From Callorhinchus milii (Eukaryota), in assembly GCF_018977255.1 (NCBI RefSeq), contig NW_024704752.1, positions 8,370,001 through 8,434,000 of the forward strand: a DNA stretch of 64,000 nucleotides, read 5' to 3'. Under the pieces are notes generated by a model. It was not told the origin of the DNA, ran no database searches, and was given only the letters and a program-made list of their open reading frames with translations. Position 1 is the stretch's first letter; each line of letters starts with the position of its first letter. This document shows positions 677 through 63,146 of the stretch, piece by piece. The position numbers were made by a program, and so were the translations under genes.

Positions 677-805
677 CGTCTTCACAAAACTCTCCGGCAA
701 TCCCAGGTGGGCAACGGCAGCTTCCTGTGGCCGCATCGCACGAGCCTCCGTTCTGACACCGGCAGATGCTGTTGCAGTCCTTTCCGTAGGTGCCCTTAGG
801 GCAGG
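677..805 (-). CDS. MEGF6: MEGF6 exon 15 (129 bp), EGF/laminin-EGF-like repeat [43 protein letters not shown]
   Basis: ttcccag| acceptor, |GTTTGT donor, phase 1-1, eight-Cys MEGF repeat. Confidence 0.93.
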
Positions 806-3800
806 CTGGGAATAGGAAGTGATAACAGTAGTCGAATGAGCTGCTGGAATCTTTTTAACATGAAGGAACTTCAATGAAGTGAAATGGACACAGCTCAGCC
901 CAGACGAAGATAGCAAGTGAGGCTGTATGGTCACACTCAAACTAGGACACATGTCTGCACAGCCATAGGCATCGGCTCAGTTACTGCGTGACCACACTTT
1001 CAGGTGGATGTGCTTTTGATTCCTGAGGCCTTGCAATAGTCTTTCCTTCCTGTTCATTTCCAAGAGCCAGGCCATGCTCCTGTGCTACAAATTCTTGGTA
1101 CCAAATAGGTGTGTTGTGTCTACATTAGCTTCCATATTATAATCTATGGTACATCCTATCCTGGTTGTGTTGTGTCTCTGTGGCTTCCTCTACCATTCTA
1201 AGGGATTCCCATCTTCTATTCGCAGCTTGAATGTCGATAACAGGATAATAGAGGGAAATAAAGTTTGGAGATTTGAACTCATGGAGAGTGAAGCAAAGAT
1301 GTGAATTATGTGACCAACTGCAATCAAACTGTAAAAGAGTTAGATGTGTTTCAGGAAGAAGTAAACTGACTCTGGTTACAGGTGAGGCCGCTCCATCCCC
1401 CAGGACAGTCACATCCGTTGCTTTCAGCGTTGCAAACTCCTCCATTCACACAGTCATCACAGCTCAGGCTGCAGTCGTTCCCAAACGTGTTATCCAAGCA
1501 GACTGTGAATTGACGCAAATAAAGGATTTACAACAAACCAGTAAATGTCTGACAATCGAGCTCAACGCTGTCTGCTGAACACCCCTCAACAAAAAAAACT
1601 CATACAGGAATACTCCAACACCTTGCCCATTATTCATGCAAGAGTTTGACAGTGAGTCAAGGTATCCCAATTGCTGTCCTGCCTAATGGGTGAATTTTGT
1701 CAATTCAGTCTTTACTCGAAAAATTTTTATTTTTACCTCCAAAACTGGCTTCCAGATCAAGACAAGACTGATTGTCTAAAATTTTGCATCAGCTTCAAGT
1801 TTAAATATAAAATGGTCCAACAGTCTCAGGCTAAGTGGAATTGGGGACCTGGTACGTACTGATTTTGTGCATGAGTCGCAGTTCGTCCCTCAGATCCTCT
1901 TGTACAGATGTGTTAAGGAGGTTCTGTAGTGTAGAAGCTGTGGTGGGGTTCTGAACAAGAGATCTCGGAATTTAGCCAGCTCGATCTCTTCCTCCAGCTC
2001 CTCATCTTCATCATCATCAAGAGCTGAGGAAAGAGAAACATCACATTAAAGGCAGCCAGCTACGGAGTCCTGAGGTCCAGGCCTCCCCCAGGGTCTATCT
2101 TCTGCATAGGACCATCTCCACTCAACTCACGGGAACAGCTTTTTCTGTCGGCCTCCAGCCTGTATCCTCCTGGACACGTGCACCAGTATGATCCGACTGT
2201 GTTAATACACAGATGGTCACAGCCACCACTGTCTGCTGAGCATTCATCTACATCTATTTGTGAAGAGAAGCAAAAGAGAGCGGGTTAGACAGAATGGGCT
2301 AGCTCCTGGGTGCGCTGGGGAGGAGGGGGGTATGGACTTACCCAGGCACGGTGGGAGAACACAGAGTATGGTGGGAGGGCACTCAAATGCCCCAAGTACT
2401 ATGTAAGGCATAAGAGCAAAGACTGGTGTGTGTATATTCAGCTGCTGCGAATTTATTCGCTTCCAATCAATTGGTTGGTGGAACAGTCCAAGACTGATTA
2501 AGTGATAATTTTTCAATACTATTAAAGAGCCAATCTGTTGAATCAAGCTCACAAGACCTCAGGACCCTTTCCATAAATCAGCAAAAGGTTTTTGTCTCCT
2601 CAGTTTGCAGTACAACAGAGCCCAAAATCCAGAGAATCCAAGTTTCAGACAAAACATCGACCATCTACACGACACAGTTCCCATCTTGTTTCCCTTTTTG
2701 ACTTGAGATTACCCTAGAGATCAGTCTGTTTCCATTATAGACAGAATCTGTTGCTGAATCCTGTTTGACATGTGAACGGCTGGGAGGAGCTGAGGACGGG
2801 GCAATATTGTGACACAAAGTATCTCGTTTGAACCTTGGAAGCTCAGTTTATCAAGCTCCAATCTGTTGGGTTTGAATCCCAGTAATAATAATAATCCTTG
2901 CATTTGCTATAGCACCTTTCACATCTTCTAGACAGTAGAGTCCATTCAGGACTTCATTACTGTTGGGTCTGTTGGACGTTCAAACAAAGTTGCCAGTTTT
3001 AATAAATGTGAATCATTGAGTAATGAAATAACATTTGGTGGAACTGACTGAGAAGCACAGCTTGGCACAGACCAATGGGTTAGGGCCTTTCACTCTCACT
3101 ATACCGTCACAGCTGCATCCATCCATGTTCAACCTGTATCCTGCCCGGCAGCTACACTCATAACCACCGGGATTATTACTGCAGTCCTGGGCACAGCAGG
3201 CCACCCGAGTCTCACACTCATTTGAATCTGCAAGAGATCAGAGAACGAAGAGCAAGTAAAATCACAATAACCTGAATCTCATCTACAGCAATAAGTGACT
3301 ATCACTCAAATATATATCCGCAACAGACACATATCGTAGGGTCAGTTAATCACACAGCTAATCACATTAGCCAGCGACAGGACTTCACTACACAAAAAAA
3401 GGTCTCCAAAAGTCTATCTCATGAGGTAAAATAAATAGGCGAAGGAAGGAGTCAGAGCTGCCCGTTGTGCAGTGGAATGGGAGTGGATAAAAATTGCACA
3501 GACAGAGAACTGATCTGTTACACAAGCTTCAAAAAAAAGTTTGCGGGAGGTTTTACTCTTGGCCATGGTGGGTACCTAGGCACGTGCGTGAGTCCGAGTC
3601 GAGGAGGTATCCTTGGTTACAAGAGCAGCGCGGTCCGTAGGTTGTGTGCTCGCAGTGGTGAGAGCAGCCACCATTCTCTTTGTCACAGCTGTTTACAATC
3701 TCCATCTCAATGCCTGTTGGGGTTTGAGGGGAGGAGTGGGATTGGGAGAAGGAGGGAAGAAAGAGGAAAGAAAGAGGAAAGTGAGCATAAAATGAGAGGA

Positions 3801-6800
3801 TGAGCTGATTGCACCACGTTTGTGGGACACTGCTGTGCGCAATTGGCTGCCGCGTATCATTCACACAATATACAATCAATTCACTTTACAGTATATTCTG
3901 TGAAGCGCTTTGAGATGTCTCGAAGATGTGATAAGGCGCTATATCAAATGGAAGGATTATTATTTATTATTAGTGTAACCACAAACCAGTGCCTACCAGT
4001 GGAATGTCAGCCATTGCATCTAATTTATTTACACTGTTATGCGCATTGTTCCTCCTGCTCCCTGTAGCCTCACTGTGTGTCACCACTGTTTCTGGCTCGA
4101 TTTCATCTTCTCACCTACTCTTTCCAACATTCTGTCCTGTACTGTCAATCTTGATCGCTCGCCTGCATTTGTTTAAACCGTCACTACATGGTGTAATTAC
4201 TTATGAAATGTTTTGAGATGTTTCAACATCATAAGCACTGTAAAACTGCAAGTTCTTTCTTTCTCAATAATTTTTTTCTTCTTTTAAAATAACTTTTACT
4301 GCAGTTGCTCCCTCTGGAGGCCACTGGAATCCTGTTCACAATAGCCATTTCATCTTCCACTTTGTTTGTCCTTGTGGAACATTATGAATCAATACAGTGT
4401 CACTAGGAAGAGAGGAGAGGGGAAGATGGGTCCTGCTTTATTGAGGTTATATACTGGAGGTTATATCACAAAATGAGCAATAACAAAGTCCCACCATTGC
4501 TTTAAACCACACAGACTGTCCTTAACAACAAATGCCTCATTATGAGAGAGTAAAGGCACAGAACGGGAAGCTCGGTGCTTAACCACATGTCAATTCCACA
4601 CCTTATTGCTCCACTTACGGTAACACTGTTTCCCATCAGCTCCCATCTCAAATCCAGGATTACAGACACAGCTGTACGATCCCAGAACATTGACACAGCG
4701 ATGAGCACACATTGCAATTCCCGTGAGACACTCGTCGATATCTGTAGGAGGAAGGCCAGAGGAGAAGACATCCAATCAAATTCCATCAGCAGCAAAATAT
4801 CCCAAAGAGCAACCTATTCCTTCTCAGCAGCCATAGAGACAATGATAAGGCTGCAAAGTCAGTCGGCTCTTTAAACCAACACTTTGCTAGGGTGACAATC
4901 CTGGGCAGCGTCTTGCTCAAGGGACTGTTTCAGAAACAGCAAAGACCATGATTGAGCCCAGGGTCTGGTGATTCCATGATGTCCGTTTGCCAAGCAAGGG
5001 CCAAACACTTACTCACAGGCAGTTGCGAATTCAACCATTAGAGGGCTGATGGTTCTATTAAAGCTGTGGATCCTACAATATGAATCAAGCCCTTTCATCC
5101 TTATTCTATTGATGCCGCTCTCTAATAGTAATCCCTTGCTTTGTCTCACGAGACGGAACCAGGAGAGAGAACAGCGCTGAATTCTGGCTCTGATAACAGC
5201 CCATGCCCAGGCAGCTCACTGATGCCCCACACAGACACCTGGAGCTTGACAGTTTCGTACCATCACATGTTTTCCCATTTGCCGTCAGTTGATACCCGGG
5301 ATTGCAGTTACATTGTGCCGTTCCATCTTCACTGTGGCAGATGTGCTCGCAGCCACCATTCTGATCACTACACGGATCCTTCACTGGCAATGAAAGAAAG
5401 TGCCAGTGGTCATTTCTGAATTAGCATCAGTTAACACTCTGCTGGCTGTAACACACTCACTCACCGTTTTAACTAATACATACACTGTTGTAAGACAGCA
5501 ACAACAATTTACACTTAAATAGCACCTTTCACCTATAAAATGTCTCCATAGCACTTTACAAAGGCAGAGTTGGAGTTGGGAGATTGAAGGATCTGTCATG
5601 ACATAACAAACTGGTGGAACAGGTTTGAATGTCCTGTCCACCTCCTGTTCTGTTCTATTATGTTTGTAATTATTTATTTCATGCTGGGATCTGACAGCCA
5701 AAAGTCAGAGGAGACTTCCATCACACCAACTTGAGCTGCCGTCAAACCTAGTTGGCAGAGCTAAAACCCGGGATATTTATTATTCTCTTTGGTTACCGAA
5801 AGGGAAATTGGCCCAGTTTGGTGTGGCCTTGTCAATGCCATTTTAGACAGTGCAAACACAAAAATCATGTCAATATCGTGTGCACCGATCATTAAAAAAA
5901 AACCTTTGTAAAGGGAATTTCAGACTCTGATGGGGACAAGTCTTCAAAAATTCTGCCCAACTTCAAACATTTTGGACAAACAATACCTCCTACTGAACTG
6001 CTGCCACGCTCTTGCCTTACATTCACAATGCTTCCCATCTCTCTGCAGCTGGTAGTTTGCTGGGCATTTGCACAGGTAATGGTCGTCGCTGATCTGCACG
6101 CACTCCCATTCACATCCGCCATTGTTTAGCGAGCAGGAATTTACAGCTGATGGGGAGGAGACAGAAAAGAGAAACTTAATTTAAACTCACCATTTCTGAC
6201 CTAAAATAGGCAGTCGCCTACAAAAATGCAGAGTAACTGCAGTTTATAGTGAATCCTGTGAAGGAAGTCCTTTGAGACATCTTCCTAATGTGAAAGGCTC
6301 TATATTAAATGCAAGGATTATTGATGCATTTCTCCCTCCTCCAATATAACACAATCTCTGGGAGTCTGAATATTCAGGTACAAAGCACTTCATCTTCATT
6401 GTAACACGTGGAGTCCTGTAGCTCAGTGGTTAGAGCACTCGCTTTGCAAGTGAGAGACCTGAGTTCAATTCCAGGCAGAGGGCGAAACCTTGGGCAAGTT
6501 TCCTTACTCCACACGCCTAATAATAATCCCTCCAAAAAAACAAAAACAATAATAAATTGGTCATTTTCAATCTACGACTGTTTGTGGGACATTGCTGTGC
6601 GCAATTGGCTGCCGCGTTCGCCCACAAATATACAGTCAATTCACTTTACAGTCTATTCTGTGAAGCGCTTTGGGACGTCCTCCCGACGTGAAAAGCGCTA
6701 TATCAAATGCAAGGATTATTATTATTATTATTATTATTATTAACACTCTCCTGTGGTTGGAGGAGGAAAGAGAGAGCGACAGGGAATACTTATAAGATGG

Positions 6801-9800
6801 TTGCAGAGAGAGAGGAGAAAGAAAGGGATGGCATGAGTCAATCGCAACACCAATGATCTTTTTTTTAATTATGTGTTTATAACAAATTTATACAAACAAA
6901 TCACGAGATCCCTTAAGAAGTTGAAAACTATTCACCCCCCCCCCCCCCCCCAAAGAATTAAAGGCTGCCTTCAAGGAGTTGTGCCAGACTGCAATTAAGT
7001 GCAAACAGCGTTAAATAACAATTTAGCTCTCATACCAGTCTCTTCTCTAAAACTGCTGTGACCTTTGATTCCAGATTACTGCTTGTTTGTTGAAATGGAA
7101 AATTCTGGGATTATTCCCTTCCTCCCATTCCCCCATCCCCCCCTGCTTCCCGCTTTCCCAGAGAATCAGCCTAGTATCTGCTTTCCCGTGAAGACTTTGT
7201 GGCTCTGTCTCCTGCAGAAAAATGGGATGTTGTCTCTGTGTTCTGCACCTGCCACTCACATTAGCACCTATCCACCAAAAGCCAGATAAGCATCAAGGCA
7301 TTAGGGGGTTAGCACGAGAAGTATGAAGGGTGTGAAAGGTGAATAGCCAGCCAGGACTATTCACTTGTGGCTTTTGGGCTTGGGGATGTAACACCCCCAC
7401 CTCCCCCACAGCAACATAGATTTCAAACAGACAGTGTGAGGATTATAAAACACACTGAGGGCAAAGGTGACTGATGAACGACGTGAAACACAAGCTACAT
7501 TTCTTTTCACTCAACCTCTTGGGGTCAACTGTGTTCAGTGCTGAAGATTTGTTAGATTACATGTGGTGCAATAGCAACGGGGGAGGGGGGGGTGGAGAAA
7601 GAGTTTCAAATCTCCATCCCGTGTTCCCGTGTTTGCTTTGCTTCTCCACTTTCCTAAGCCATGTGATTATGGCTATTTACTTAATTGTACGACTATCTCA
7701 TCTACCTGTCTAGATAAAGAAGTTAATAATTATATTTATTTCCCTTCTCCCTTTCCTCTCCTGAAGCTACCAACTGAAGCTGGACTAGGCACTCCCTGAT
7801 TCTTTTACTCAAGTGACTATTTCTCTTGGTGTTGAGATGCTACCCTGCGCGTGAGGCGCTATATTCATAGAATGTTACGGCACAGAAGGAGGTCATTCGG
7901 CCCCTCGTTGTTGTTAAATGCATAAAATGCAGTCAACAACTGCTGGTCTTCTCCAGACCTCAAAGCTCCATTTATCTGCTATTTTTTGTGGGAATCTGTT
8001 GTGTCAGATTGGAAAGAAGATCGTTTCAACCTCTAGTCAAACCTTGGGTAAATCTGTGCCAAACATATAGAGTATAACTGCAGCCAGCTATATTGCCACT
8101 CAGGCAATACTGTACCTAATAATACCTATAGACTTCTTCTATATCTCTGCTCCATGGTGCACACAACTGATGAGTTCAGTGCAGTTAGACCATGAATTTG
8201 GCTGACCACTTACTAATGCAAGTGCGACCGTCCGCATGGATCCTATACCCAGCCTCGCACTCGCAGTAGAATGAGCTTTGGGTGTTCACGCAGCTCTGTT
8301 GGCAGCCTCCATTGACCGCGGTACACTCGTCCACATCTATTAAAGAAACAATATTCAGGCACCTGCCAAGCTCAAACAGTTTTAGAGAATTTTTTTCCCT
8401 TTGGGGGAAGATGCTTGGGTGATGCTCTAGAAAGCAGGAGAGTACTGTAAGAAAGAGGATGGTATAAATCAAATGGATGGTTTGGGAGAGCATAAAGAAA
8501 GGGAAGTATGGTGGTTGGAGGCTATCAGTCACAACGCCCCCACTCGCTGAAAATCACTCCCACAATCCCTTTACGTTAGTCGTCTCCACACCTTCCAAAT
8601 CCCCTTAAAAACCTTCTAATGACCATGAATTTGATGAACATCCTTCCATTCTCCTTCCGTTCCTTCTTGTTCGGTGCTCCCTATCTGTAAGTGCAAGCTG
8701 TTGAACGAAGCCAAGCTAGAGCTGTAAACACTTGTAGATTCTGTTTGTGAAAAGCTAAAAGTAAAGAATAGGTTAGGAGCTTAGGGGCATTTCAAGCTCT
8801 CAGCTTCTATGCCTCCTTCCTGACCCTTTCTTTAGTTGTAAGTCAATTGGTTCAGGTTCTTCCGATTTGAAATCAAACAAAAAAAGATATATTAACTGGG
8901 ACTGACTGGTTAAGTTAGGACTGCCATGTTATATAGAGTAAGGCGCAACAGAAGAATACTCCCTGTTGTACCATTGTGATATCAGGCATCCCTCATAACA
9001 TAACCAAGGCACTGTAACCCAACCATCTGCAGTCTTTACGATGTGCTTTTGGCTATTAAAAAAACTGTTCTAAGATGCACCTGTTGGACTTTACAAGATT
9101 CTTTTATTTAGTATTTTTTTCATGTTGGCTCAACGGTTGCCTTCACCCGCAGTGCTGATGTGAGGTCCATCACAAAATGGTGCAGGGTGGGTGTGAACAT
9201 GAATTGGGGCAGTCACTTGCTCTCAGAGCATATTGTTCAGGTCAGTGGAGTTGAGGAGCAAAGGGCAGAGAGAAATTCAAGTGCCCCTAGAAGAGGCAAA
9301 AACAGCGGTCATAAAAAATGGTCTGTTCCATACTCCGCACTCCCCATTTCCTACAACAGGAAATGATTGTTTGTAGCACATTAGTCTTGTCTTTTGAGGA
9401 TCATATGTATACAGTTCTGGTGAAACAGAAAGCACAGAGCCAAACTGTTCTGCTACAGTTCCAGACTTGTCTCAAGCTCCATAACTCTCAGAACTGAAAT
9501 ATCTGGCATCACATTTCGGAAAAAATCCCCTCCAACCACCGGCTGTTTGGAAATGAAACATGTCCCTTTGGAAAACCCTCAGCTTTACCATTTGTATAAT
9601 AGGTTAAACAGGAGTTCTCAACGGCTGCTTAATAGTTTACATCCTTCAATGATACTAAAGGAGTCAAAAATAAACCTGGAAGTGTGAGTGCAGGCTGTAC
9701 ATAGGAGCAGGGAAACCAGCCAGAAACAGACTCCGGGTCCTCGCCAGACCAGAGTCTCCACTAGAGACACTGTAATGAAGTTGGGGACCTGTACGCACGT

Positions 9801-12800
9801 GTCTGCACAAACAAGCTGAGTGTTTGAGTGGATATAGCACAGGCCTAGGAATATGAATAAACTTCAGAAATTTTAGAAGAGAGGAAAGTGCCTGTAAGTT
9901 GATCTTGATTGATCTTAACCCCACTTTCTCATCATCTTTTCTTTAATCTCTTCTCTGAAGCCCAGGCAACAACAACAACAACAACAAATTGCATTTCTAT
10001 AGCAACTTCCCTATTAGGAGGATTTTCCAAAATGCAGGATAGTTGAGGGTTTGCACCCGAGCTGGAGCTTGGAATCAAAAGGAGTGTAGGGCAAGGGAGT
10101 GGGAGGATAGCCGAAGGCACAGTCAAAGAGGAAGGTCTTGAGACAAAGGCCTTGAAGGGAGCAAGAATTGTGGCGAGACGAAGGGACTTCAGGATGCAGT
10201 TCGAGAAGATGGGGGAAGCCAGGCTGAAGGCTCGACCGTTAATTGTGGGGCAGATATGGAGTAGTCCAGTATCCGCTGAGCGGAAGGAGTGGGCAGGTTG
10301 GCAAGGCTTTAGCAAGTCACATCTCTATCTCTAGCAGAGTCTTGCTTATAGGGAGTTTACTGTAGTTATTCATTTCATGACTGTTTATGGAACTTTGCTG
10401 TGTGCAAATAGACTGATGGGTTCACTTACAAACAGACAGTCACTACACTATCCTCCCCAGTCTTACCTTCACAGGACAGGCCGTCAGTGCCAAGCCGGTA
10501 CCCCCCTGAACACTTGCAGTAGTAGCTGCCAATGGTATTGCAGCATTCCTCCTGACAGCCACCATTCCCTCTCACACACTCGTTCACGTCTGTATAAGGG
10601 AGAAACAAATAACAACTCAGTTATGATAAATCCTCCCCCCCAACCCACAACACTACTGTGTACAGGGGAAAGCAAGGTGATATGTACAGCTGAATCGAAA
10701 TGTGTCCTTGCCTGATGTACGCACCCGGTTTCCAGCAAGGAGAGCCTGTGGATAGCCAAGGAGAAGAGAAACCCTAGCTGTTCATTTCTGCCCTCCTTTG
10801 CCCACGGTACTGCTGTGCACAATTGGCTGCTGCATTTCACCCGCAAAACACAGGCAATTCACTTTACTATATATTCCGTGCTTTGAGACACCTCAACAAC
10901 ATGATAAAACGCTATGTCAAATGCAAAGATTATATTATTATTCTACACCAATTATTCATACAGATTCCCAAGTGAACAACTTGCCTTTAGTGCTGCAAAA
11001 TGGGTAACAACAACAACAACAAGATTCCATTTATAGAGCGCCTTTCACGTCGGGAGGACATCCCAAGGTGCTGGACAGTTGGGTCAGGACCCGAGCAGGG
11101 GGGAAATGGTCAGGCTGAGGGGAGGGAAGGGAAGTGGTGCTGTTCCCTCCAGAGCAGCAAAGTGTATCTCTACAGAGGTACAGTCTCCGCATATCCACAC
11201 AGGGCAGAACATGCACCTGCAACCTGGTCAGTTAGCCAGGGCAGTTGTACGTTGTAGCCTCCTGTAAGGTACATCAGAACAAAGTGTGTGGCTGGGTTAA
11301 GAAGAAGCTGAGAGGTCATGAAGCACAAATCCTTTGTAGCCTTTCACCTCCCTTCCCCCTGAGCCCACCTGCACCTGTAGCCTTTGAAGCCAGGAGGTCT
11401 CGGAATTGAGACAAAGGAGGCACATTGTCGACAAGCTTTTGGCTTTCGGTTCCATAAAAATTTGAAGAAAAAGGAAATGAATTCATGTCAATTCCAGTCC
11501 GGTACAGGAGGCAACGCAGGAAGTGAATAATTACGCCGTTATGTGGCCGACAACTAATCACCTCATCATTGTGCTGGCTGCCTCACCGGGGACAAAGACT
11601 TCTATTTCCCGTCATTACTCCGGGAGCGCAGAGCGATGGCAACAGGGGAGGAATAAATAACCGTCTTAGCTCTAAAACACGAGCCAGCGAGGAACATCTG
11701 CCAGATCCATTGCATCAATGCGAGAGAAACCAATCCACAACGTACACATACTCCAGCTGGGACCAATGTCTCCAAATTCAACATTACCTCCTTGTTCTTG
11801 TGTTCAAATATAAAATTTAGAATCCCAGTTGTTTTTTATGATCTTGTTCCCCATGTTCTTCCATACTTTGGGGGCCTGGGGACCTTGGATACAGGAGTTC
11901 CATTTAATAATCAATGAATGGAAATCCCAACCTCCCTCCTCCCACTTATCCGTATGTTAGCTATATTCCATTTACTGACCTTGAGAGGTTAAACGTGGTA
12001 TAATTTCTGTAATGTACACATTGTCTTCTCAAGTAATATTGAGAATATACTCAATTTATCATGTTGAAACAACTCAAAATGTTTACCAGTAGTTAGTAAC
12101 TTTTTTTATATATAGGCAAACATATCTACCAGCAGCAAGGACCCACAAGGAATTCCCTTCTCTTTTCCAATAGTGTCAAGGGACAGTAAACTGAACAGGC
12201 AAACAGGTTCTTAGATTTAACATCTTAGCCAAAGAATGAAATCCATGACAAGGCAGTCCTCCCTCAATAATTCACTGAAGTGCCAAGCTAGAATATGATC
12301 TCAAGACCCAATATGGGACTTGAATCCCCACCTTGGTGAGTGCTACCAACTAAGCTGAGCTCAAAGTTAGATGAGGGGCTAAGGTCCACAGTGCTAGTCA
12401 GTAATAAGGTTGAGAAGAACAGGGAGCACAAATCAAAAAGTAGTGGTTAGGTTGAGTCAATGCTCATCCAATAGAACAACAACTTGTATTTAAATAACGC
12501 CTGTCACACCTGGACGACAGATACCTGTACAACACAAAGCTGTAGCACGTCACCACACCAGAAGCATGGATACAAAGTCATTTTGTCAAAATTCTTTAAT
12601 GTTATCTTATGTGAAAGGCACTACATACATCAGTGCAAGTAGTTTTTGTTCCCGTCCCACTGGATTTCAGCAGCTGATTTTGTAGATGTTTAAATTACAT
12701 TCTTAAATTAAATTACATTCCTCACAAACCAAAGAATCTCAGAACTCAGCGGAAGGTTCCATTTGTTCCCATATTAATCTGTTGGACCTATTGTTTCCTA

Positions 12801-15800
12801 CTTTGAAAAGCAAATGTGCAAAAGAGTCTTTCCCCCCAGAATCAACCATTGTGGAGTCCTGTAGCTCAGTGGTTAGAGCACTCACTTTGCAAGCGAGAGA
12901 CCTGAGTTCAATTCCAGGCAGGGTGAAACCTTGGGCAAGTTTCCTTACTCCACCCGCCTAATAATAATCCCTCCAAAAACCAAAAACAATAATAAAAAAA
13001 ATTGGTCATTTTCAATCTATGACTGTTTGTGGGACATTGTTGTGCGCAATTGGCTGCCGCGTTCTCCCACAAATATAGTCAATTCACTTTACAGTGTGTT
13101 CTGTGAAGCGCTTTGGGACGTCCTCCTGACGTGAAAAGCGCTATATCAAATGCAAGAATTATTATTATATTATATATTATTATTACACTGCAGGCAGGAG
13201 AGCTGTTCTGCTGCGGCAAAGCTGAGGTTCCAGTAGAATGAACTTGCAAAGCTCCAAACTGCCTCCAAGGGTTTTGGCAAGGTTATATCAGACCCAATTA
13301 CATAGAGCTCCTTACAGTATACAGTGAAGCTTTCCCCATACACACAGACCTCCTGAAGATACAGATTCATCCAAGGGTATGGTTCTATTGCTGCGAGCTG
13401 ACCTCCACTAGCTCAGCCAAATGACTATATGTCCTGCATGTGCCCAGGGAGTAAGCTTCAGTGATTTAGTGGTCAAAGCATTAGAGCCAAGCTGACCCCA
13501 TCTTCAGCCAATAACCACACACTCAGTGTCCGGCAAGACTGGGAAATGTGGATAAATTGCTCCTTCAGGCTCCCACCCCCACCACCCAATGATAGCATCC
13601 TGACTATCATCCTGAGATCAGCAAACTCAGCAACAAGTGGGGAACAAAGATACAGGCATCTGATCTGTGTGACTCAGTTCCACATAGGTCAGAATAAGGC
13701 AGCTTGTAGGGTAGTTAAGCAGATGCTTCTGTGGACCTGTCTCCCTGGTGCATTCAGGCTCTTATTTCCCTTCGCAAAATGTCACCAGAATTAATTATTA
13801 ATTCCATCTCCATCTGATATTTGCAGAATTTAATTTTTTTTTGAGATTCGCAGAATTTCAATCTTTTTTTGAAAATGTCAGGAGTTTATTTTTTAATAAA
13901 AAATTGCTATTGTACATTCACGTTAATGGGAAAAAAGTCACTCCTGTCAGGACCTAGTTAGCTTCTATACTATACTACAAAGCTTCTGTACAGGAGCAGG
14001 AATGCAAACTTAGAAAGATGAACATGCGACATATGATACCAGCAATAAATGAACCCTTCCCCTTACCCAGTGTGCACTAAACACAGATCTGGGAATGGAG
14101 CACCAGAGGCCGGGTGCCAAGTGGCTAAAAGTCCACCCGCAGATAGCAGGATGTTACATGCACAATATGCTCAACCAATATTATGGATGTTCTACTGGAC
14201 CTTACCCCATCACCCCACCAACACACACACACACACAGTTTGTGATTTACACTTTTTCACCCAGTGTACAAGACACCATGTGCAGGCAGGAATGTCTCCC
14301 AAGTCCAACAATGAATGTGCCGCTAGGTGTACATTATTACAGGAAATAAATCACCACTAGAACACAGCACGCTGCCAGCACCTTCATTAAACAGCAACTG
14401 TGACCACCAGTACGCCCATTCAGAGGAACACATCCTTGGCAGAACTCCAGGCCTCCCGGCCTCTGAAATTGAATGGAATGCTAACTGCAGTAATGGAACT
14501 CTGACACCACAAGTGCATTCCACAGGACTTCCCCATTTCCACAGTCGGGCTTTGGGATATTCTCCCACGAAGACAAATCAGAGTTGGCCTCTTTGCTTAT
14601 GTACGCTTGGAGAGATTACTGTATTCCAGAAACAAGGAACTACTAGCAAAAGTACATCCAGGTCTGTAGAACCATGAAATAGGGCACTATCTCCTACTCT
14701 CATTAGTTTTTTCTAGAATCTCTTTCCTCTTGTGAAGTAACTTCTAACCTCACTCAATCTTCCATTCCTACTATCTTCAGCGTTTGGGGCTATATCTAGC
14801 CAAGTGGCCTTGATTTATCTCAATGTTCTCTCCCAGTCTTTTTATCATTGGTGATTTTTCTCTAGCATCCTCCCTTCCCCAATCTGTCTCCATCACTGCC
14901 TTTCTCCACTTTATTTATTTCAAGACACGTGTGAGCGCTTGGGAGGAAAATTGGTGGCAAAAAAAAGTTTATTTGTGACTCTCAACCCAACAGCCCCCCC
15001 CCCCCCCCCTCTTTAAATGTTTTCTGAAAGAAGAGACCCCCCACCTCAGTGTCATTGAATTTTTTTTATTTTTTTGGTCAGCCGAGTATCTGAAATACTC
15101 AGAAACCCATCACCGTGCTTAAGAGTATCCAAACCAAACTGAGAATTCCATGCATCCCAACTACACATGGAAATTCCAGAGATAGATTGTTGGAATGGAA
15201 TGCGCACTCTCTCCCTGGAGAGACGCATCCTGCTTACCTAATTCCGGAAAGTATTAGGCACAGGTTAACAAGAGCCATGTGTGTCTGAATCCATGTGTGA
15301 CCCTTGACAGCGAAAGGCAAAAGCCTATATATCCATAAAATAGAGCACTACACCTGATCCGGAGGGACCATTACAGCTGATACCAATCTTGCCTTCTTTC
15401 CACATCACTTTTAGGGCTCACTGGGCAATAGTTAAGAAAAACCTGGCTGAGTTCCCTCTCCCCAATTCAGGATGCTGGGGCAAAATTTAGCAATAACTAC
15501 TGCCATCCTGGCCGAGATCAGCTAACTCAACACAGATTTGTGACTAAACTAAAGAACTTCTTGTTCTGTATTTTCCAAATAAATTAATTGAACGCAAAAG
15601 CTTATTGCAAGAAAATCTCCTATAGCAAGCAATGGAATTTTGGACAAGCGCTTTGTGACTGTAAGAAGCAAAAAAAAGTCAGATTCATTGATAGCTTTCC
15701 CTGTCCTCCAAAAAGCTACACAACATACTATAAGGTAAACATACCTCAAAATTGAGCTCAACGGGCTGTGGGACAAATGCTAATGAGGCCTGGGTTGTAC

Positions 15801-24100: not shown

Positions 24101-27100
24101 TAAAGAATCTTATTATTAATATTTACCAAACATGAGGTCTTCCCATTAGAAAATGTTGTGAGCTACCAGAAAGCAGCAGAACCACATCTCAACAAAAACT
24201 GGTCCATTCAGGAGATAAAGAGAGTAATTTGGGATACACCAGACAGTTACTGTAAATCAAGCTACGCAGGCCTCTGTGCCAATCAAATGGACTCTTGGCA
24301 CCAGTTCAATGCTGTGCTCCAGGGGATTCACAAGTAGGAAATGAGGCTTTCAGGAGATTAGCCAGGCCTCCTTGCCTGGGATTTATCCAGCATCATGTTC
24401 CCGGGGGAGGTTTGTGGGGGGGAGGGGGGGGTTGGATGTAAAATAATCATGGTACAATTCAAACTGTAAGTCCCACTTGATCTGACAAGCGTTAAACAAT
24501 CTCTGGTGCTGAATAAGAGCAAGTAGTGAGTACAGATCTAATGCCCACCACGTGTAGGGTGCATCCCCACCTCAGTGGCTCCCAAACCTTCTCCACCAGC
24601 GGAGGCTAGATCCCACGGTTGCCCCCCCAACGGACCCTTCTGAGTGACCACTCGGCAGATAATGGTTGAATGAGAAAGGTTTGGCGTCCCGTTAAGGTTG
24701 AAACAAACCAGAGACGAAAGAGGAATCAAGTCGTGGTTCAACAATGCAAAGCTTGGGTTTTGAGAGTTAAATGTTGTTAAGGAAGGAAGGCTGAGGGAGT
24801 TGTATTCTGAGGGAAAGAGTGACTTAGAGCAGGAGACAGAGATTTGTTTTTTCATTTAAAACCTGTTTTCACGTTAGGGGAAGGATGTAATTTTGTTCTG
24901 TTAAGCATTCCTTTGTTATCTAAAGAACATTATTTTGTTGCTTTCTTTAGAATCGAGGAGCTGATACACAAAAGCCTGAACTGATGGAATTGAGGGTTCA
25001 TCAGGCAGCCTTTTCCCCATTACAAACAAGACCTATCCTCAGTTGAGGTAGACAACCGGCACCAACTCCTTCACTAGAGATACCTGGGTTTTGTCCAAAA
25101 AAAAGTCAATCTACTTTACAGTATATCCTGTGAAGCGCTTTGAGACGTCTCGACGACGTGAAAACCAATATATCAAATGCAAGGATTATTATTATTACAG
25201 ATAGCTAATTTCAATTGGTTCTCTTTTTCTGCACTGTTAGATTTGTGCAGATGTTGGTTAGTTTACATCCAATCCCCCCTCCCCCCCCACATAAAACCAT
25301 CCAGGAACAACATTGTGAAGTCCTGTAGCTCAGTGGTTAGAGCACTCGCTTTGCAAGCGAGAGACCTGAGTTCAATTCCAGGCAGAGGGCGAAACCTTGG
25401 GCAAGTTTCCTTACTCCACACAGAGCCTAATAATAATCCCTCCAAAACCAAAAACAATAATAAATTGGTCATTTTCAATCTACGACTGTTTGTGGGACAT
25501 TGCTGTGCGCAATTGGCTGCCGCGTTCGCCCACAAATATACAGTCAATTCACTTTACAGTGTTCTGTGAAGCGCTTTGGGACGTCCTCCCGACGTGAAAA
25601 GCGCTATATCAAATGCAAGGATTATTATTATTATTATTATTATTATGCTCCTTCACTGGACATGAGGTTATAAGGGAGCAGCTAAGTTATCTACGAAGGA
25701 TGATCAATTATTTTTCCCCATCTCGGGGTAACCCATACCAACCTCTCGATCAACGATGATCACCCAGTCCTAGGAAACCAAGTATGGGTCGCCTTCCTTG
25801 TATATCATAGGCCTCACCCACCCTTGATTTCTGAGGCCTTTCAGGTTATATTGTTATCAGTCTTCATGAGAAGTGAAGCCTTTTAAAGTTTCTGCTGTTT
25901 ACTTTTCTGTTACATTTCTCTCTCTCTAAAGCCCTGAGGATCTGGGAGATCACAGGCAAAACCAAACCTCTTACCAAGTATCCACCCACATATGCTGTCT
26001 AGCAGTACTAAGAAGATAGCAATCAGCAAGAGGTATACCTTACTCTTCCCCTGGTCCAGGGGTGCTGAGATTAACTGTAACGCCTTCATCCAACTCAGAA
26101 GTGACCAGGGATTCAACCTGGAAGCTTCCTGGTTTGTATAGTTTGTTTCCATGCTAAAGATTGTCTCTATCAACTCAGCCATCGAGGGAGTCAAAGAAGT
26201 TTCAATGTCAGATTGGGGCTATACATTCAGCATCTTCCCCACATAGAATGCTGGAGAGCTGAAGGACTGTAACTGAGAGGCTCAACATTAATCCTCCACA
26301 TAATGTCCTGCATTGTTATACCATTAAAGTTAACAGCTTTGTAACCCAAGAATGCTAACAATGTACATGGTCCTGATCCTCGCTAACCACTTCCTGACAT
26401 TTTTTGAGAGCTAATAATGTGTTTGGTCTGTACTGCAGTTCTGGGTTGCAAAACAGATAAACATCATACAACCTTCAACTCCCACTGCGATGCCTCTCAG
26501 TCGAACCTTTGTTGCTGGTCTGAGTTCCAATTTCAACGATGCCGATTAGCAGTCTATATATTACTAGTGGGGGTTTTGTGAATAAATCACATCTCTTATT
26601 TCGGTAATTCCTTTGAGGAGCCAGCCCTGTCTTGTCTGTGACACGACACTCCTGCAAACAACCAAAGGATACCCAGTGTACAAGCCAAGGCATGTTTAAC
26701 AGAACTCTGCTGGGCAAGAAATGTTCAGAAGTTCCACAGGAATCAGTTAGTGCATAAAAGGACGGCTGGTCTCCAACTTAACTCAAAATGTATGAAACGC
26801 CAAGCTCTGACCACTTGTTACCCGAAACTTGATTCAGACTCTCCTTCTGTCACAACCGTGTTTTCTCTATTTTATCATTCCTTTTTAAATATTCCTCATG
26901 TAAGTTATTTACAGTAGAATGATCGATCATTCCACCTACTTGCTCCTCATCTTCACTGTTAAATTCAAGGCTCAATCGCGCTATCCCCTATTTAAACTCA
27001 TTCTTTTGACTTGATTGCAAGACCATGAACTCTTCACTTCCCTTAAGTCTTTCCTTCCTCCTGCAGTCCACAAGTTTTAAAACCTAAGCTTGCATCTACT

Positions 27101-60100: not shown

Positions 60101-63100
60101 GAATAGAATGATAAAACATGCAGCATGGAAGATTATACAATGTATACCATTGTGCTCTGATCTAGACCACCGCGCAGTGCCATGATCCATTGAGGAGATT
60201 ACAATAATACATTGTATTGAAAACTATTCCCAAGACAAAACTGTCTTGCAAAGAGAGCTATATATTGTACTCATAACTAACTGCGATGCATTCAGCTGTC
60301 AGCTTTAACCAGCCATTGCTTGCTGTGAAAGATGTCTGTGTTATTGTATTGAGGGTCAATTGCAGACATCAAAAGCATCCCCAGACAGCTTTCATGTTAT
60401 TGCAGTTAAGGGAGCACAGACATACTACAGTCTTCACACAAGCCACAGTTTTGAAATCGCTTCTAATGGTGTGGTTGCTAGACCTCTGACAGAGTTTGTC
60501 CAGCCACCCTTTAAATGATATACTGGGAAGGAGAATGAAGGGCTGCTAAGATTTGGCTGGAAAGCTAACGAATTTCAAATAGTGTCCACCAATCTCAAGC
60601 TATTTTCTCAAAGAATATTGAGATCCTTGCATTGGTTCTCAAATCCCTCCATGGCCTCCTTCCATTTGGTCTAACCTTCCCCAGCTCTACAACCCAGCCT
60701 GCACTCTGCGCTCTTCTGGCTCAAGATTGACTTCTCACTCCCTCTGCTCTAGTGTCAGGGATTGAGTCTTCACATTATCAGTTGTCAGTTTGAAGAAGGT
60801 CCTTTGGTCCATTTTGTTCTTGTTATTCCAAAATATCTGCCCTGCTGTCTTTCCGTCACAGCAACAAATGTTTTTTTCTGCCCTGGTTTCAATTACCTTT
60901 CCTGGCAACCTGTTCCAGGCATTAATTATCCTCTGGATTAAAAAAAATGGTGTCTGACCTCAAATTGTCCTTTGCAACTCTAAACCTATGTCTTCTTTTT
61001 CTACTGTCTTGGTGCAGTAAAAGTATTATCCTGCTTTATTTTATTCTGGGTTTTACTTTAAACTATTATTTACCTTCATAAGGACCCCCTAAGAAAAGCT
61101 CCTTTCAAGACTGAAGAGCCTTATGTTGTTTAATTATTAAACAAAGCTCATTCCTCTAACATTAAGAACCACTAGACTGCCATCCCTACTATTTTCCGAG
61201 CAACTTTACTTTGCTACCTCTCCAGCTCTTTACAAAGATCTCTTTAAAAATCCTGTGCCTTCAATCAGCTCTAAAAGCCTCCCACGTCTTGCTCAGTGTC
61301 AGCGTTCAAGACTTTCTTTCATGTAAGTAGTACTATATCAAATGGAAGTTGAAGAGGAGCTTCATTAGCTCCAGGACAATAACCTGACACTAAGGTCCCA
61401 GCGGCACCACAGGAGTAAGTGGCTGCTAACCTCCAAGCAAAGGGCTCATAATGGTCAATGGGTCAGAGTTCATAGCAATACCACATCATTATGTGATTAC
61501 AGCCACCCTGACTCTCCAGCACTCAACACACTTGTCTTTCCTCCACATCCATGTCACAAGTGGTCCTGCCACACAACAGGAGATGGAGAAAAAAAAGCAG
61601 AAAGCCCCATCTTCTTTGCTGAAGGCAGTCTGCCCAGATTGATCCTAGAGTCTTTCTAACCTATGTGCAGATACTGAGAGTAGAACATTGCTCATTACTC
61701 CAGGATCCTGAATACGCACACATCAATAGTGGGTCATACTGATCTCTACAGACACCACACTATGGATTTTGATATTTCCAGCATTTGGTGCTGAATTTGC
61801 CACAAATAAACTATTTGAAAATCAGTAAATTACATTTATTGGTGATCAACCTACCACCCAGCTCCTGTATGTACCCCTTTTCTGTGGTAAGTCGTGAAGA
61901 TAAAATGAGAGAATCAATAGTCACATCATAACACTCCTTCCATCTCGGTGCCTTTACTTTATCCACAGAACCAAATAATTATCGATATGTTCCCTCCTTT
62001 CTCTTCCACTATATAGTTTAAAACACAAATCAGAAACTTATATATGCAAATCAGGTACTTCCACTTACATTGTATGCACTATTGGTTTCAAGTATTAATG
62101 AAGCTATCTGTCCTTTTTTCCACTTCATCAATGTCTTAATTACTCCTCTGAATATTTCCACCTCCCCTCTCTGCTCCAAAGTACTACAGGTACTCTATCC
62201 TCATCCAGTTCAGTTGAATCCAAACTTCATTCCATCATCTCCAATTTAATTAATTCTTTCCCATTCCTCCCCCTACCATCTACAGCCACCCAAACTCCAA
62301 GAATGGCCTCACCTAAACACGAATTCTCTTCCCCACATGATTCAACTTTACTCGATGCATCTTACTTTACCTAGAACTCTCTTTTGCAATTAAAAAAACA
62401 TATCGTTTCCTATTGAACCCAGCAGAATTCCTCCACGTTGTTAGCCACCTACAATCTTCTCTTCCACAGATTAACAGAAGGGTGTCCTGTGGTCCTGTGC
62501 AGCCAAACATACCAGAAAAGGGCAAAACGAAAACAGAGAGAAGGGACTTACGACTTATCATTGATCCATCAGTTGCTGACAGTGGGCTGCAGACATCTCA
62601 AAACAAAGGTAACGCTGACTGCTGTTTCATCCCATCAGTGGGTTTGGAATTAAACCCAGCGGTACCTTTGATTTGGGGATGCCTGGGGTATACTGTCAGT
62701 GACTGATGACTAAAGCAAAGGGCGAGAATATCCCCATCAGACACAGACTGCGGTAGAGTGGGCTCAATGGGGAACGAATGTTGGGTTCAAGGGGGAAAGA
62801 ATAATCCAACCTGTCAATGCCCTTAAATTCAACAGGACATCCATCCTGCGACCCACAAGACATCTAAGGCTACAAAAAAAAATTAAGACATGCAGACACT
62901 AAATATCACATCCCATTCTGTAACACAAACATGACTTCAGTTCCCAAAAGCAAAGTCCGGATAAAACCTCGTGAAAGTAAAACTATATTTTGCATCGGCG
63001 ACTTTCATTGAAACCGCAAAACTATAAACCTGAATGTCATCAAAATAGATCTCAAATTGCACTTACATGTCAGGTTGAAGGTCCATCCACACAGCCTGTC

Positions 63101-63146
63101 TGGTCGCAAATAAGTAAAGGCAGAAAAGTACAAACTCCAAATTCAT
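677..63146 (-). CDS. MEGF6: MEGF6, exons 1-15, 3'-partial (continues beyond base 1): complement(join(63067..63146,56609..56743,55900..56009,55099..55203,10467..10589,8214..8336,6021..6146,5261..5383,4619..4741,3576..3713,3105..3227,2131..2253,1860..2023,1371..1502,677..805)); apparent 1-bp frameshift in exon 13
   Basis: All introns are GT-AG with compatible phases except exon 13. Domain order is signal peptide, EMI, EGF, cbEGF/EGF array, acidic linker, EGF repeats. Recognised MEGF6 peptides include [42 protein letters not shown] and [17 protein letters not shown]. An intronic mir-551 is present, as at human MEGF6. Confidence 0.93.
1371..1502 (-). CDS. MEGF6: MEGF6 exon 14 (132 bp) [44 protein letters not shown]
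   Basis: ttcacag| acceptor, |GTCAGT donor, phase 1-1, open frame with all cysteines intact. Confidence 0.93.
1860..2023 (-). CDS. MEGF6: MEGF6 exon 13 (164 bp as given), acidic linker [41 protein letters not shown] / [13 protein letters not shown], with an internal frameshift
   Basis: tttctctttcctcag| acceptor, |GTACGT donor. The entry frame hits TGA at 1892-1890, while the shifted frame reads [13 protein letters not shown] into a phase-1 donor. Confidence 0.88.
2131..2253 (-). CDS. MEGF6: MEGF6 exon 12 (123 bp), cb[44 protein letters not shown]
   Basis: aaatag| acceptor, |GTGAGT donor, phase 1-1. Confidence 0.94.
3105..3227 (-). CDS. MEGF6: MEGF6 exon 11 (123 bp), eight-Cys cbEGF-like [41 protein letters not shown]
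   Basis: cttgcag| acceptor, |GTATAG donor, phase 1-1. The CC...NNPGGYEC...DGCxC pattern is as in MEGF6 orthologues. Confidence 0.94.
3576..3713 (-). CDS. MEGF6: MEGF6 exon 10 (138 bp), [49 protein letters not shown]
   Basis: caacag| acceptor, |GTACCC donor, phase 1-1. [10 protein letters not shown] is characteristic of MEGF6. Confidence 0.95.
3812..3972 (+). mobile_element. SINE 3' fragment (similar tail-only fragments at ~2884, 6235, 10800, 25105, 49880, 51535, 53328, 58885, 59600)
   Basis: gtttgtgggacactgctgtgcgcaattggctgcc...gcgctatatcaaatg.aaggattatt. Confidence 0.8.
4619..4741 (-). CDS. MEGF6: MEGF6 exon 9 (123 bp), cb[44 protein letters not shown]
   Basis: cctacag| acceptor, |GTAAGT donor, phase 1-1. 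Confidence 0.95.
5261..5383 (-). CDS. MEGF6: MEGF6 exon 8 (123 bp), [44 protein letters not shown]
   Basis: ttgccag| acceptor, |GTACGA donor, phase 1-1. Confidence 0.94.
6021..6146 (-). CDS. MEGF6: MEGF6 exon 7 (126 bp), [45 protein letters not shown]
   Basis: ccatcag| acceptor, |GTAAGG donor, phase 1-1. Confidence 0.95.
6408..6741 (+). mobile_element. Full-length young tRNA(Ala)-derived SINE, short subfamily, with L2-like 3' tail and (TTA)n; possible TSD TAACAC
   Basis: A box TAGCTCAGTGG at 6419-6429, B box GAGTTCAATTCC at 6461-6472. Near-identical copies at 12851 and 25315. TAACAC flanks both ends (6402-6407 and 6741-6746). Confidence 0.9.
8214..8336 (-). CDS. MEGF6: MEGF6 exon 6 (123 bp), cb[44 protein letters not shown]
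   Basis: taatag| acceptor, |GTAAGT donor, phase 1-1, cbEGF consensus. Confidence 0.95.
9967..10300 (-). mobile_element. Older, diverged L2 LINE 3' end
   Basis: (CAA)n tail on the + strand, then gaaggcacagtcaaagaggaaggtcttgagac...gaaggctcgacc, similar to the L2 ORF2 end (GRAFS, FK). Confidence 0.75.
10467..10589 (-). CDS. MEGF6: MEGF6 exon 5 (123 bp), calcium-binding [44 protein letters not shown]
   Basis: atacag| acceptor, |GTAAGA donor, phase 1-1, D-x-N-E-C and C-x-N-x4-Y-x-C consensus. Confidence 0.92.
11006..11133 (-). mobile_element. Short 3'-terminal fragment of the same L2 LINE
   Basis: Matches 22396-22522 (aacaacaagattccatttat...gggtcaggacccgagca). Confidence 0.85.
12851..13184 (+). 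mobile_element. tRNA-derived SINE, short subfamily
   Basis: High identity to 6408-6741. Confidence 0.9.
16400..16625 (+). mobile_element. LF-SINE-like relic (head and middle)
   Basis: cccttcacctctgggatctagatttaaatctagcctagactg resembles the head of the 46370-46810 element. Confidence 0.45.
18066..18285. repeat. Compound microsatellite (TG)n(AG)n with a degenerate AG/AC-rich extension
   Basis: Directly visible. Confidence 0.9.
20643..20975 (+). mobile_element. tRNA-derived SINE, long subfamily, diverged with deletions
   Basis: A/B-box remnants, internal segment and tail are recognisable. Confidence 0.78.
22396..23865 (-). mobile_element. L2-clade (CR1/L2 group) LINE, 5'-truncated: RT domain, ORF2 C-terminus and 3' UTR; non-functional
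   Basis: Translates to [62 protein letters not shown]. Has an in-frame TGA near 23112, a 1-bp deletion relative to the 33716 copy near 22940, and a (TGT)n tail. Confidence 0.92.
25315..25646 (+). mobile_element. tRNA-derived SINE, short subfamily
   Basis: High identity to 6408-6741. Perfect anticodon-like stem CTCGC-TTTGCAA-GCGAG and a long (TTA)n tail. Confidence 0.9.
25765..25838 (-). ncRNA. MIR551: microRNA mir-551 precursor (5p arm 25810-25831 GAAAUCAAGGGUGGGUGAGGCC; 3p mature 25772-25792 GCGACCCAUACUUGGUUUCCU)
   Basis: The arms base-pair (GAAAUCAAG/CUUGGUUUC, UGGGU/ACCCA, GCCU/AGGC). The 3p arm matches the miR-551 family mature sequence as I recall it. It lies in sense orientation in MEGF6 intron 4, the known host intron of MIR551A. 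Confidence 0.93.
27786..28180 (-). mobile_element. CR1 LINE 3' fragment (further CR1-like pieces at ~7866-7910, 45230-45400, 60790-61170)
   Basis: CR1-type 3' signature (gacacag.agga..cc.ttcagcc; accctggcaaattgctccacatcctgacagccctctgggagaagaagttcttc). Confidence 0.6.
30620..31240 (-). mobile_element. Older Deu-domain SINE (SacSINE1/AmnSINE-like), interrupted by a younger SINE; related copies at ~12040-12360(-), 23890-24120(+), 29810-30185(-), 34590-34960(+), 40263-40650(-), 47590-47875(-)
   Basis: Motif chain gataaatattgg..ggacac..aactccctgctc..ggatcttt..tttaa..tctcatctgaa..ctccctcagcactgca.tggaatgtcagcct recurs at these loci. The family name comes from recalled consensus and was not searched. 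Confidence 0.65.
30783..30976 (+). mobile_element. 5'-truncated young SINE nested within an older Deu-domain SINE
   Basis: Matches 6517-6720 and is flanked by the two halves of a minus-strand Deu-SINE. Confidence 0.82.
31551..31862 (-). mobile_element. tRNA-derived SINE, long subfamily, 5'-truncated
   Basis: Reverse complement of the family body and tail. Confidence 0.8.
32975..33195 (-). mobile_element. 5'-truncated SINE, long subfamily
   Basis: Reverse complement of tail and body. Confidence 0.78.
33716..34472 (-). mobile_element. Second copy of the same L2 LINE family, 3' ~750 bp
   Basis: Nearly identical to 22396-23155, including the duplicated purine-rich 3' UTR unit and the (TGT)n tail. 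Confidence 0.9.
35808..36184 (+). mobile_element. tRNA-derived SINE, long subfamily
   Basis: Same head and tail plus an internal ctctgtttacctagcag...gttagtcgattg...ggatcgcttt segment. Confidence 0.85.
37967..38340 (+). mobile_element. tRNA-derived SINE, long subfamily, abutting an older Deu-SINE fragment (~37740-37965, minus strand)
   Basis: Similar to the 35808 copy throughout. Confidence 0.85.
43508..43614. repeat. Inverted repeat, ~42-bp arms with a 22-nt spacer
   Basis: ggtaatcagtagctcaaattaattttttgcttatcagggtac versus the reverse complement of gtaccctgataagcagaacattaatttgagccactgatttacc: 3 mismatches and 1 indel. Confidence 0.88.
43858..44068 (+). mobile_element. 5'-truncated SINE (body and tail)
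   Basis: Matches 6517-6741. Confidence 0.85.
44263..44552 (-). mobile_element. tRNA-derived SINE, short subfamily, with its head duplicated in tandem
   Basis: Reverse complement of the family; see the tandem repeat at 44495-44702. Confidence 0.82.
44495..44702. repeat. Tandem duplication, 2 x 104 bp
   Basis: Units start at 44495 (cccaagtctctcgttt) and 44599 (cccaggtctctcgttt) and differ by only a few substitutions. Confidence 0.9.
45995..46130 (+). mobile_element. Another old interspersed repeat family (SINE-like); related fragments at ~13480-13690(-), 15430-15545(-), 21690-21830(+), 41250-41400(+)
   Basis: Shared motif gtctgtgctgagtt.gctga.ctc.gcc...ccctgggctagggag...atcagc.agg at several loci. 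Confidence 0.5.
46370..46810 (-). mobile_element. LF-SINE-like ancient SINE relic
   Basis: The minus strand reads cttttcacctctgg...tttgaatccagcccag (head), caatttggcaccaaattagcaac (middle) and ggagctttgctgc...catgctgtacctg (3' part), colinear with the recalled LF-SINE consensus. Confidence 0.6.
48436..48765 (-). mobile_element. tRNA-derived SINE, long subfamily
   Basis: Reverse complement of the family from tail to anticodon arm. Confidence 0.82.
49991..50031. repeat. (TA)n/(CA)n microsatellite
   Basis: Directly visible. Confidence 0.85.
55099..55203 (-). CDS. MEGF6: MEGF6 exon 4 (105 bp), EGF-like [35 protein letters not shown]
   Basis: ctccag| acceptor, |GTAAGT donor, phase 1-1, six-Cys EGF module. 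Confidence 0.95.
55900..56009 (-). CDS. MEGF6: MEGF6 exon 3 (110 bp), EMI domain C-half [36 protein letters not shown]
   Basis: ccttag| acceptor, |GTAAGT donor, phase 2-1, EMI signature KCCPGW. Confidence 0.95.
56160..56410 (-). mobile_element. Degenerate L2 ORF2 C-terminal fragment
   Basis: Residual peptide [24 protein letters not shown], typical of L2 ORF2 ends. Confidence 0.6.
56609..56743 (-). CDS. MEGF6: MEGF6 exon 2 (135 bp), EMI domain N-half [45 protein letters not shown]
   Basis: tgcag| acceptor, |GTGAGT donor, phase 2-2, EMI cysteine pattern. Confidence 0.95.
56978..57085 (+). mobile_element. SINE head only (tRNA-like part)
   Basis: gtggagtcctgtagcttagtgg...gggcaagtttccttactccaca. 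Confidence 0.78.
63067..63146 (-). CDS. MEGF6: MEGF6 first coding exon, signal peptide [26 protein letters not shown](M)
   Basis: ATG at 63146-63144 with G at -3 and a hydrophobic core. Ends AT|GTAAGT (phase 2) and joins G-CCC-AAC of exon 2 to give LQPDMPNVC. Confidence 0.9.

What the first reader, a model, noticed from the sequence alone, without database searches (positions are those of the whole stretch)
1860..2023. One-base frameshift and premature stop in MEGF6 exon 13, at the hinge between the cbEGF array and the C-terminal repeats
Seen: the exon is 164 bp between two phase-1 introns. The entry frame reads ...[18 protein letters not shown] (TGA at 1892-1890). The shifted frame reads [13 protein letters not shown] and splices correctly into exon 14 (ICLDNTFG). 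Adding one base near 1901-1902 (TAC[G]AAGAG) would give YEEDLRDEL. The site is not in a homopolymer. Exons 14 and 15 are fully intact. Inference: this is an assembly error, a recent loss-of-function allele subject to NMD, or a truncation giving a secreted EMI+EGF-only protein. Intact downstream exons favour an error or a very recent allele.
Basis: partly seen in the sequence, partly recalled or inferred. Interest (0 to 1): 0.7.

Follow-up and report, generated by a model that had tools for sequence, protein, structure and literature searches.

The report
Assembly error at a silent SNP
The apparent frameshift is most likely an assembly slip: every other data set from the species that covers the spot has the missing base, which is a silent polymorphism, and the gene is likely EGFEM1, the sister gene of MEGF6, with an otherwise open reading frame.

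Summary
The 164-nt exon, its splice sites and the early TGA are in the assembly as described. But 7 of 7 public runs that cover the site (8 laid, three studies) carry one extra base, and a spliced contig holds a 165-nt exon joined to exons 14 and 15. The extra base comes in two forms, giving Lys codon AAG (3 runs) or AAA (4 runs): a synonymous SNP. With either, 36 exons read as 1,544 residues without a stop. The assembly lacks exactly the variable base, which sits between an A-run and a G, so an unphased consensus likely dropped it at a heterozygous site (inferred; known error type, PMC5632298). The assembled animal's own reads were not available, so a private null allele remains possible (about 5%). 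The gene is also likely misnamed: it faces MECOM, and a second copy beside a RhoGEF gene groups with teleost MEGF6, so this is EGFEM1. Artefact; low interest.

The parts
1860..2023 (-). Hinge exon (coding exon 13), 164 nt in the assembly, 165 nt in reads
   Evidence: spliced contig of run X5 has 165 letters over 1860-2023 (table 8)
1898..1900 (-). Site of the missing base: third position of a Lys codon, AAG or AAA in other data sets (synonymous SNP)
   Evidence: C put in behind 1898 in X1, X3, X6; T behind 1899 in X2, X4, X5, X8; both are one site and both restore the frame
1890..1892 (-). Premature TGA, in frame only in the assembly
2068..2070 (.). Second one-base deficit, in intron 12 (two C in the assembly, three in reads)
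   Evidence: 4 of 4 DNA-type runs, table 4; context
2131..2253 (-). Exon 12, last calcium-binding-type EGF repeat, intact
1371..1502 (-). Exon 14, intact, spliced to exons 13 and 15 in RNA contig
677..805 (-). Exon 15, intact; 22 further intact exons follow beyond the window's left edge
3105..10589 (-). Exons 5-11, EGF repeats, intact
   Evidence: Pfam FXa_inhibition/cEGF on exon 10
25766..25839 (-). mir-551 precursor in intron 4, as in the paralogous gene
   Evidence: Rfam RF00892, 69.7 bits; paralog copy 62.1 bits
55099..56743 (-). Exons 2-4: EMI domain and first EGF repeat
   Evidence: Pfam EMI on exon 3; exon 2 alone gave no Pfam hit
63067..63146 (-). Candidate exon 1 with ATG, hydrophobic leader and phase-2 donor (predicted, not shown in RNA)
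   Evidence: the only candidate that passed the filter

Best explanation
The frameshift is likely a consensus error of the assembly: other data sets of the species all carry one more base at 1898-1900, that base is a silent A/G polymorphism, and the assembler likely dropped it because the sequenced animal was heterozygous there. Mechanism (inferred): one allele lengthens the A-run on one side, the other the G-run on the other side, so against the shorter sequence each allele looks like a different run-lengthening insertion backed by only half the reads, and both are discarded. The real gene is an open EMI plus multi-EGF gene of at least 1,544 residues, likely the EGFEM1 paralog of MEGF6. Artefact by any route: about 0.94; by this route: 0.78.
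For: 7 of 7 covering runs of 8 laid, from three studies, have the extra base. Spliced contig with a 165-nt exon 13 joined to exons 14 and 15. Two alleles at one site, both Lys. Either allele gives 1,544 residues with 0 stops over 36 AG/GT exons; the assembly gives 17 stops. Only 30 of 3,201 positions differ among the four DNA-type runs and the assembly, so a random one-base loss would hit such a site about 1-3% of the time. A second one-base deficit lies 170 bases away. Toy likelihood consensus dropped the base in 14 of 180 heterozygous trials in this context and in 0 of 540 control trials. Indels at bases that differ between merged haplotypes are a described error (PMC5632298, passage); short consensus indels causing frameshifts are the commonest long-read error (PMC8081667, passage).
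Against: The assembled animal's own reads were not seen, and its sequencing and polishing method is not known here. The four DNA-type runs all differ from the assembly at 5 SNP sites in 3.2 kb, so they are other animals or another haplotype. Only contigs were laid; they drop rare alleles. Two of the seven supporting contigs have depth under 5 (X6 3.7, X8 4.7). A first simulation with simple alignment scores never dropped the base (0 of 200), and in the likelihood model it was dropped in only 3-17% of trials, so the route is possible, not obligatory.
Confidence: 0.78

Rival explanations
1. Ordinary consensus deletion in a short run, with the animal homozygous; the overlap with the SNP is coincidence. 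Still an artefact.
For: Another one-base shortening of a C run at 2068 in 4 of 4 DNA-type runs; short indels are the commonest long-read consensus error (PMC8081667, passage).
Against: Chance of landing on a polymorphic site about 1-3%; homozygous controls never lost the base in the toy model (0 of 360).
Confidence: 0.16
2. A real, private one-base deletion allele in the assembled animal, giving a null (nonsense-mediated decay predicted, since over 20 exons follow the stop) or a short secreted product.
For: The assembly has it, and the animal's reads were not seen. The EGFEM1 lineage tolerates decay elsewhere: human EGFEM1P is a pseudogene (PMC4396373, passage), and two marsupial entries end a few repeats after the hinge.
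Against: 0 of 7 covering runs show the short form as their long contig. Second, short records at the site in X1-X3 add only about 18, 18 and 27 bases in the bin where a perfect match to the assembly allele would add at least 46 (rough arithmetic). It needs a third allele at an already polymorphic base. No other lesion in 35 other exons.
Confidence: 0.05
3. A species-wide truncation, or a frameshift rescued by an alternative acceptor inside the exon.
For: An AG ending at 1938 would restore the frame in the assembly's sequence.
Against: All covering runs have the extra base, and the RNA contig keeps the whole exon up to 2023; nothing needs rescuing.
Confidence: 0.01

Closest known systems
Haplotype-merging indel errors of unphased long-read assemblies (PMC5632298; passages and section 14 read)
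   Same: A one-base indel at a nucleotide that differs between alleles, breaking a coding frame in an otherwise clean gene.
   Different: The assembler and read type of this genome were not established, and heterozygosity of the assembled animal is inferred from population alleles.
EGFEM1 (EGF-like and EMI domain-containing protein 1), e.g. P0015 Notamacropus 613 aa, P0148 Antechinus 696 aa, P0018 Fundulus 1,321 aa; human pseudogene EGFEM1P
   Same: EMI plus EGF architecture; hinge exon aligns with the EGFEM1-type hinge; tail-to-tail with MECOM as in human (PMC4396373 passage); hosts mir-551.
   Different: Full-length here (at least 1,544 residues, 37 exons located), whereas the two marsupial entries stop a few repeats after the hinge and the human gene is a pseudogene.
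MEGF6 (multiple EGF-like domains 6)
   Same: Same exon plan and phases, same intronic mir-551 position.
   Different: The MEGF6-type copy in this genome is on contig C24 beside a RhoGEF gene and a MECOM-like paralog, and it, not the window gene, groups with teleost MEGF6/megf6b at 100/99.

Membership tests
Real loss-of-function allele | Short form present in independent reads | tested here: not met
   0 of 7 covering runs; all carry an extra base
Real loss-of-function allele | Short form present in reads of the assembled animal | not testable with these tools
   No run known to be from that animal; contigs only
Pseudogene | Further lesions or lost splice sites | tested here: not met
   35 other exons open, 36 of 36 with AG/GT; spliced contigs in X5, X6, X7
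Haplotype-merging consensus error | Indel lies at a base that differs between alleles | tested here: met
   Two alleles at one site, 3 and 4 runs
Haplotype-merging consensus error | Assembled animal heterozygous; assembly unphased from noisy reads | not testable with these tools
   Not known; toy models mixed (0 of 200; 14 of 180 against 0 of 540)
MEGF6 ortholog | Lies beside ARHGEF16 and PRDM16 (human order in PMC13488206, passage) | tested here: not met
   Downstream neighbour is MECOM, 100% identical to the Callorhinchus milii entry, ending about 22 kb from the last located exon. The RhoGEF neighbour is at the C24 copy. A search for a RhoGEF remnant between the genes was swamped by repeats.
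MEGF6 ortholog | Groups with MEGF6 proteins in a tree | tested here: not met
   C24 copy plus four teleost MEGF6/megf6b rows form a clade 100/99 that excludes the window gene. Caveat: no mammalian MEGF6 and no outgroup in the tree, and three bird and lizard rows labelled MEGF6-like fall on the other side.
EGFEM1 ortholog | Tail-to-tail with MECOM | tested here: met
   human arrangement in PMC4396373 and PMC11577113 (passages)
EGFEM1 ortholog | Groups with proteins named EGFEM1 | tested here: inconclusive
   On the same side of the 100/99 split as P0015 and P0018, but its place within that side is unresolved (57/34); P0018 scores slightly higher to C24 by identity (42.7 against 41.5%) though lower in bits
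EGFEM1 ortholog | EMI domain followed by EGF repeats; hosts mir-551 | tested here: met
   (shared with MEGF6, so not discriminating)
EGFEM1 ortholog | 5' neighbour GOLIM4 (recalled, from no call) | not tested
   DNA beyond the window's right edge was not fetched

The most novel reading that the evidence does not exclude
The assembled elephant shark really carries a private frameshift allele of a still full-length EGFEM1, arisen at an already polymorphic base: an early, independent step of the same decay that shortened this gene in marsupials and killed it in humans.
Probability: 0.05. Interest if true: 0.3.

Novelty: not a real feature. Interest (0 to 1): 0.08.

Why it matters
As an artefact it matters only for annotation: the reference should get the base back and the gene should likely be called EGFEM1. 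It is a clean example of a false gene loss at a heterozygous site, a warning for frameshift calls in this assembly. The side result, a full-length EGFEM1 in a holocephalan beside MECOM with MEGF6 beside a MECOM paralog, supports an old duplicated block and gives the likely ancestral form of a gene that humans lost; modest interest.

Tried and rejected
Homolog search with the hinge exon alone found nothing (74 candidates, 0 scored); no database protein of this gene from this species was found, so none could be checked for the 165-nt form. No listed holder is on record as RNA; RNA origin of X5-X7 rests on spliced contigs. The exon 12-13 junction was not shown by any listed contig. Simulation with simple alignment scores did not reproduce the deletion. 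tblastx of the C24 RhoGEF interval against the C11 stretch returned repeats and was uninformative. The last coding exon was not located. Alternative-acceptor rescue rejected. PMC6053246 (passages) had no bearing. Paper searches for EGFEM1 with MEGF6 gave 0 papers; a search with elephant-shark terms listed 10 of 80 papers, none holding either gene name; one search gave three listings, not read. These searches do not show that the paralogy is unpublished. Earlier-findings look-ups near the site and by words were empty.

Full report
Observation. On the minus strand the exon runs from 2023 to 1860, is 164 nt long, follows a pyrimidine tract and AG and is followed by GT. The frame entered from exon 12 stops at TGA 1892-1890; the frame shifted by one leads into exon 14. 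The exon is single-copy in the genome, at G000:C11:8371850-8372035. I built the gene from the window and 100 kb of neighbouring DNA: 36 internal exons, all with AG/GT. Of the 34 with phase-1 introns on both sides, 33 are multiples of three; the hinge exon is the only exception. A candidate first exon with ATG and hydrophobic leader lies at 63146-63067, which makes the hinge exon number 13.

Reads. Twenty-four runs were listed, eight holding part of the stretch, from four studies; I laid those eight. All are assembled contigs, not raw reads. Four runs of one study cover introns continuously and so behave as DNA. All four have one extra base at the site: C behind 1898 in X1 and X3, T behind 1899 in X2 and X4. 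Of the other four, three cover the site and all three have the extra base: T in X5 and X8, C in X6; X7 has no cover. The X6 and X8 contigs have depth under 5. X5 holds one 585-letter contig that joins exon 15, exon 14 and the hinge exon with consecutive record positions, with 165 letters over the 164 reference bases (table 8). So 7 of 7 covering runs from three studies contradict the assembly.

The missing base is a SNP. The two insertions are two alleles of one position. On the coding strand they give AAG or AAA, both Lys, and both restore the frame. With either, the 36 exons translate to 1,544 residues with no stop; the assembly stops after 494 and has 17 stops.

Mechanism. Shown: the assembly lacks exactly the variable base, and that base lies between an A-run and a G, so each allele lengthens a different neighbouring run. 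Inferred: the assembled animal was heterozygous, each allele looked like a separate half-supported insertion, and the consensus kept neither. Only 30 of 3,201 positions carried other letters, so a random loss would meet such a site about 1-3% of the time. Korlach et al. report that merging haplotypes introduced indels at nucleotides that differ between them (PMC5632298, passages and section 14), and the vertebrate genomes paper names short consensus indels as the commonest error, causing frameshifts (PMC8081667, passages). My toy tests were mixed: with simple alignment scores the short form never won (0 of 200); with a likelihood model rich in run-lengthening insertions it won 14 of 180 heterozygous trials in the real context and 0 of 540 control trials. 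A second one-base deficit in intron 12 at 2068, seen in 4 of 4 DNA-type runs, suggests such slips are not isolated here, though it could be a polymorphism.

What is not excluded. The assembled animal's reads were not seen. The four DNA-type runs share five SNP differences from the assembly in 3.2 kb, so they cannot speak for that animal, and contigs drop rare alleles. In X1-X3 a second short record overlaps the site without being listed as either insertion; from the binned depths it adds about 18, 18 and 27 bases where a perfect match to the assembly allele would add at least 46, which argues, roughly, against its being the short allele. I put a private null allele at 5%.

Gene identity. Homologs of exon 10 include proteins named MEGF6, megf6b and EGFEM1 (27 of 27 candidates passed). 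The genome has two such genes. The window gene faces MECOM tail to tail: the neighbour's large exon is 100% identical to Callorhinchus milii MECOM, and its last exon ends about 22 kb from the last located exon of the window gene. The copy on C24 is followed by a RhoGEF exon and then a MECOM-like gene only 52% identical in the large exon, which I infer is PRDM16. In human, MEGF6 lies with ARHGEF16 and PRDM16 (PMC13488206, passages) and the pseudogene EGFEM1P lies downstream of MECOM (PMC4396373 and PMC11577113, passages). In a tree of 15 rows (13 of the 27 hits, the short fragments left out, plus the two gene models) the C24 gene groups with four teleost MEGF6/megf6b rows at 100/99, excluding the window gene, whose hinge aligns with the EGFEM1-type hinge. 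The tree lacks an outgroup and mammalian MEGF6, and database names are mixed (three bird and lizard rows labelled MEGF6-like fall on the EGFEM1 side), so synteny carries most of the weight. Both genes host mir-551 in the same intron. I put EGFEM1 at about 90%.

Comparison. Two marsupial entries named EGFEM1 (613 and 696 aa) end at the same place a few repeats after the hinge, and the human gene is a pseudogene, so a short product is a real state of this lineage elsewhere; whether those entries are complete models was not checked. In the elephant shark the evidence points to the full-length state.

Verdict. The frameshift is in the assembly, but most likely not in the animal: artefact about 0.94, by heterozygous collapse about 0.78. 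Not a real feature; interest 0.08.

Noticed in passing
window 25766-25839 (-) and L036:8222-8295 (-): mir-551 precursors in the same intron (intron 4) of both paralogous genes, so the host-microRNA pair was duplicated together.
   Followed up: partly
window 2068-2070: Second one-base deficit against 4 of 4 DNA-type runs, in intron 12; error or polymorphism.
   Followed up: partly
G000:C24:8287303-8421885 (L022-L040): Likely true MEGF6 with a RhoGEF gene and a MECOM paralog downstream; 16 modelled exons read without a stop, hinge exon 165 or 183 nt.
   Followed up: partly
L004-L011 (G000:C11 about 8279000-8332400): MECOM on the plus strand, 14 matched segments at 82-100% identity to the named protein.
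   Followed up: yes
window 6416-6478, 12855-12926, 25323-25385, 35812-35882, 37968-38039, 44476-44546, 56989-57046: Seven weak Rfam tRNA matches inside introns (29-47 bits), probably heads of tRNA-derived SINEs (inference).
   Followed up: no
window 2883-2933 and 3818-3964: Short pieces of very high-copy repeats; summed contig depth near one million.
   Followed up: no
P0002, P0026, P0004: Bird and lizard database entries labelled MEGF6-like group with marsupial EGFEM1 (96/96), so they may be misnamed.
   Followed up: partly
P0015, P0148: Two marsupial EGFEM1 entries end at the same place shortly after the hinge, suggesting a shared truncation.
   Followed up: no
window 3401: One-base indel polymorphism in intron 10, present in 2 of 4 DNA-type runs.
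   Followed up: no
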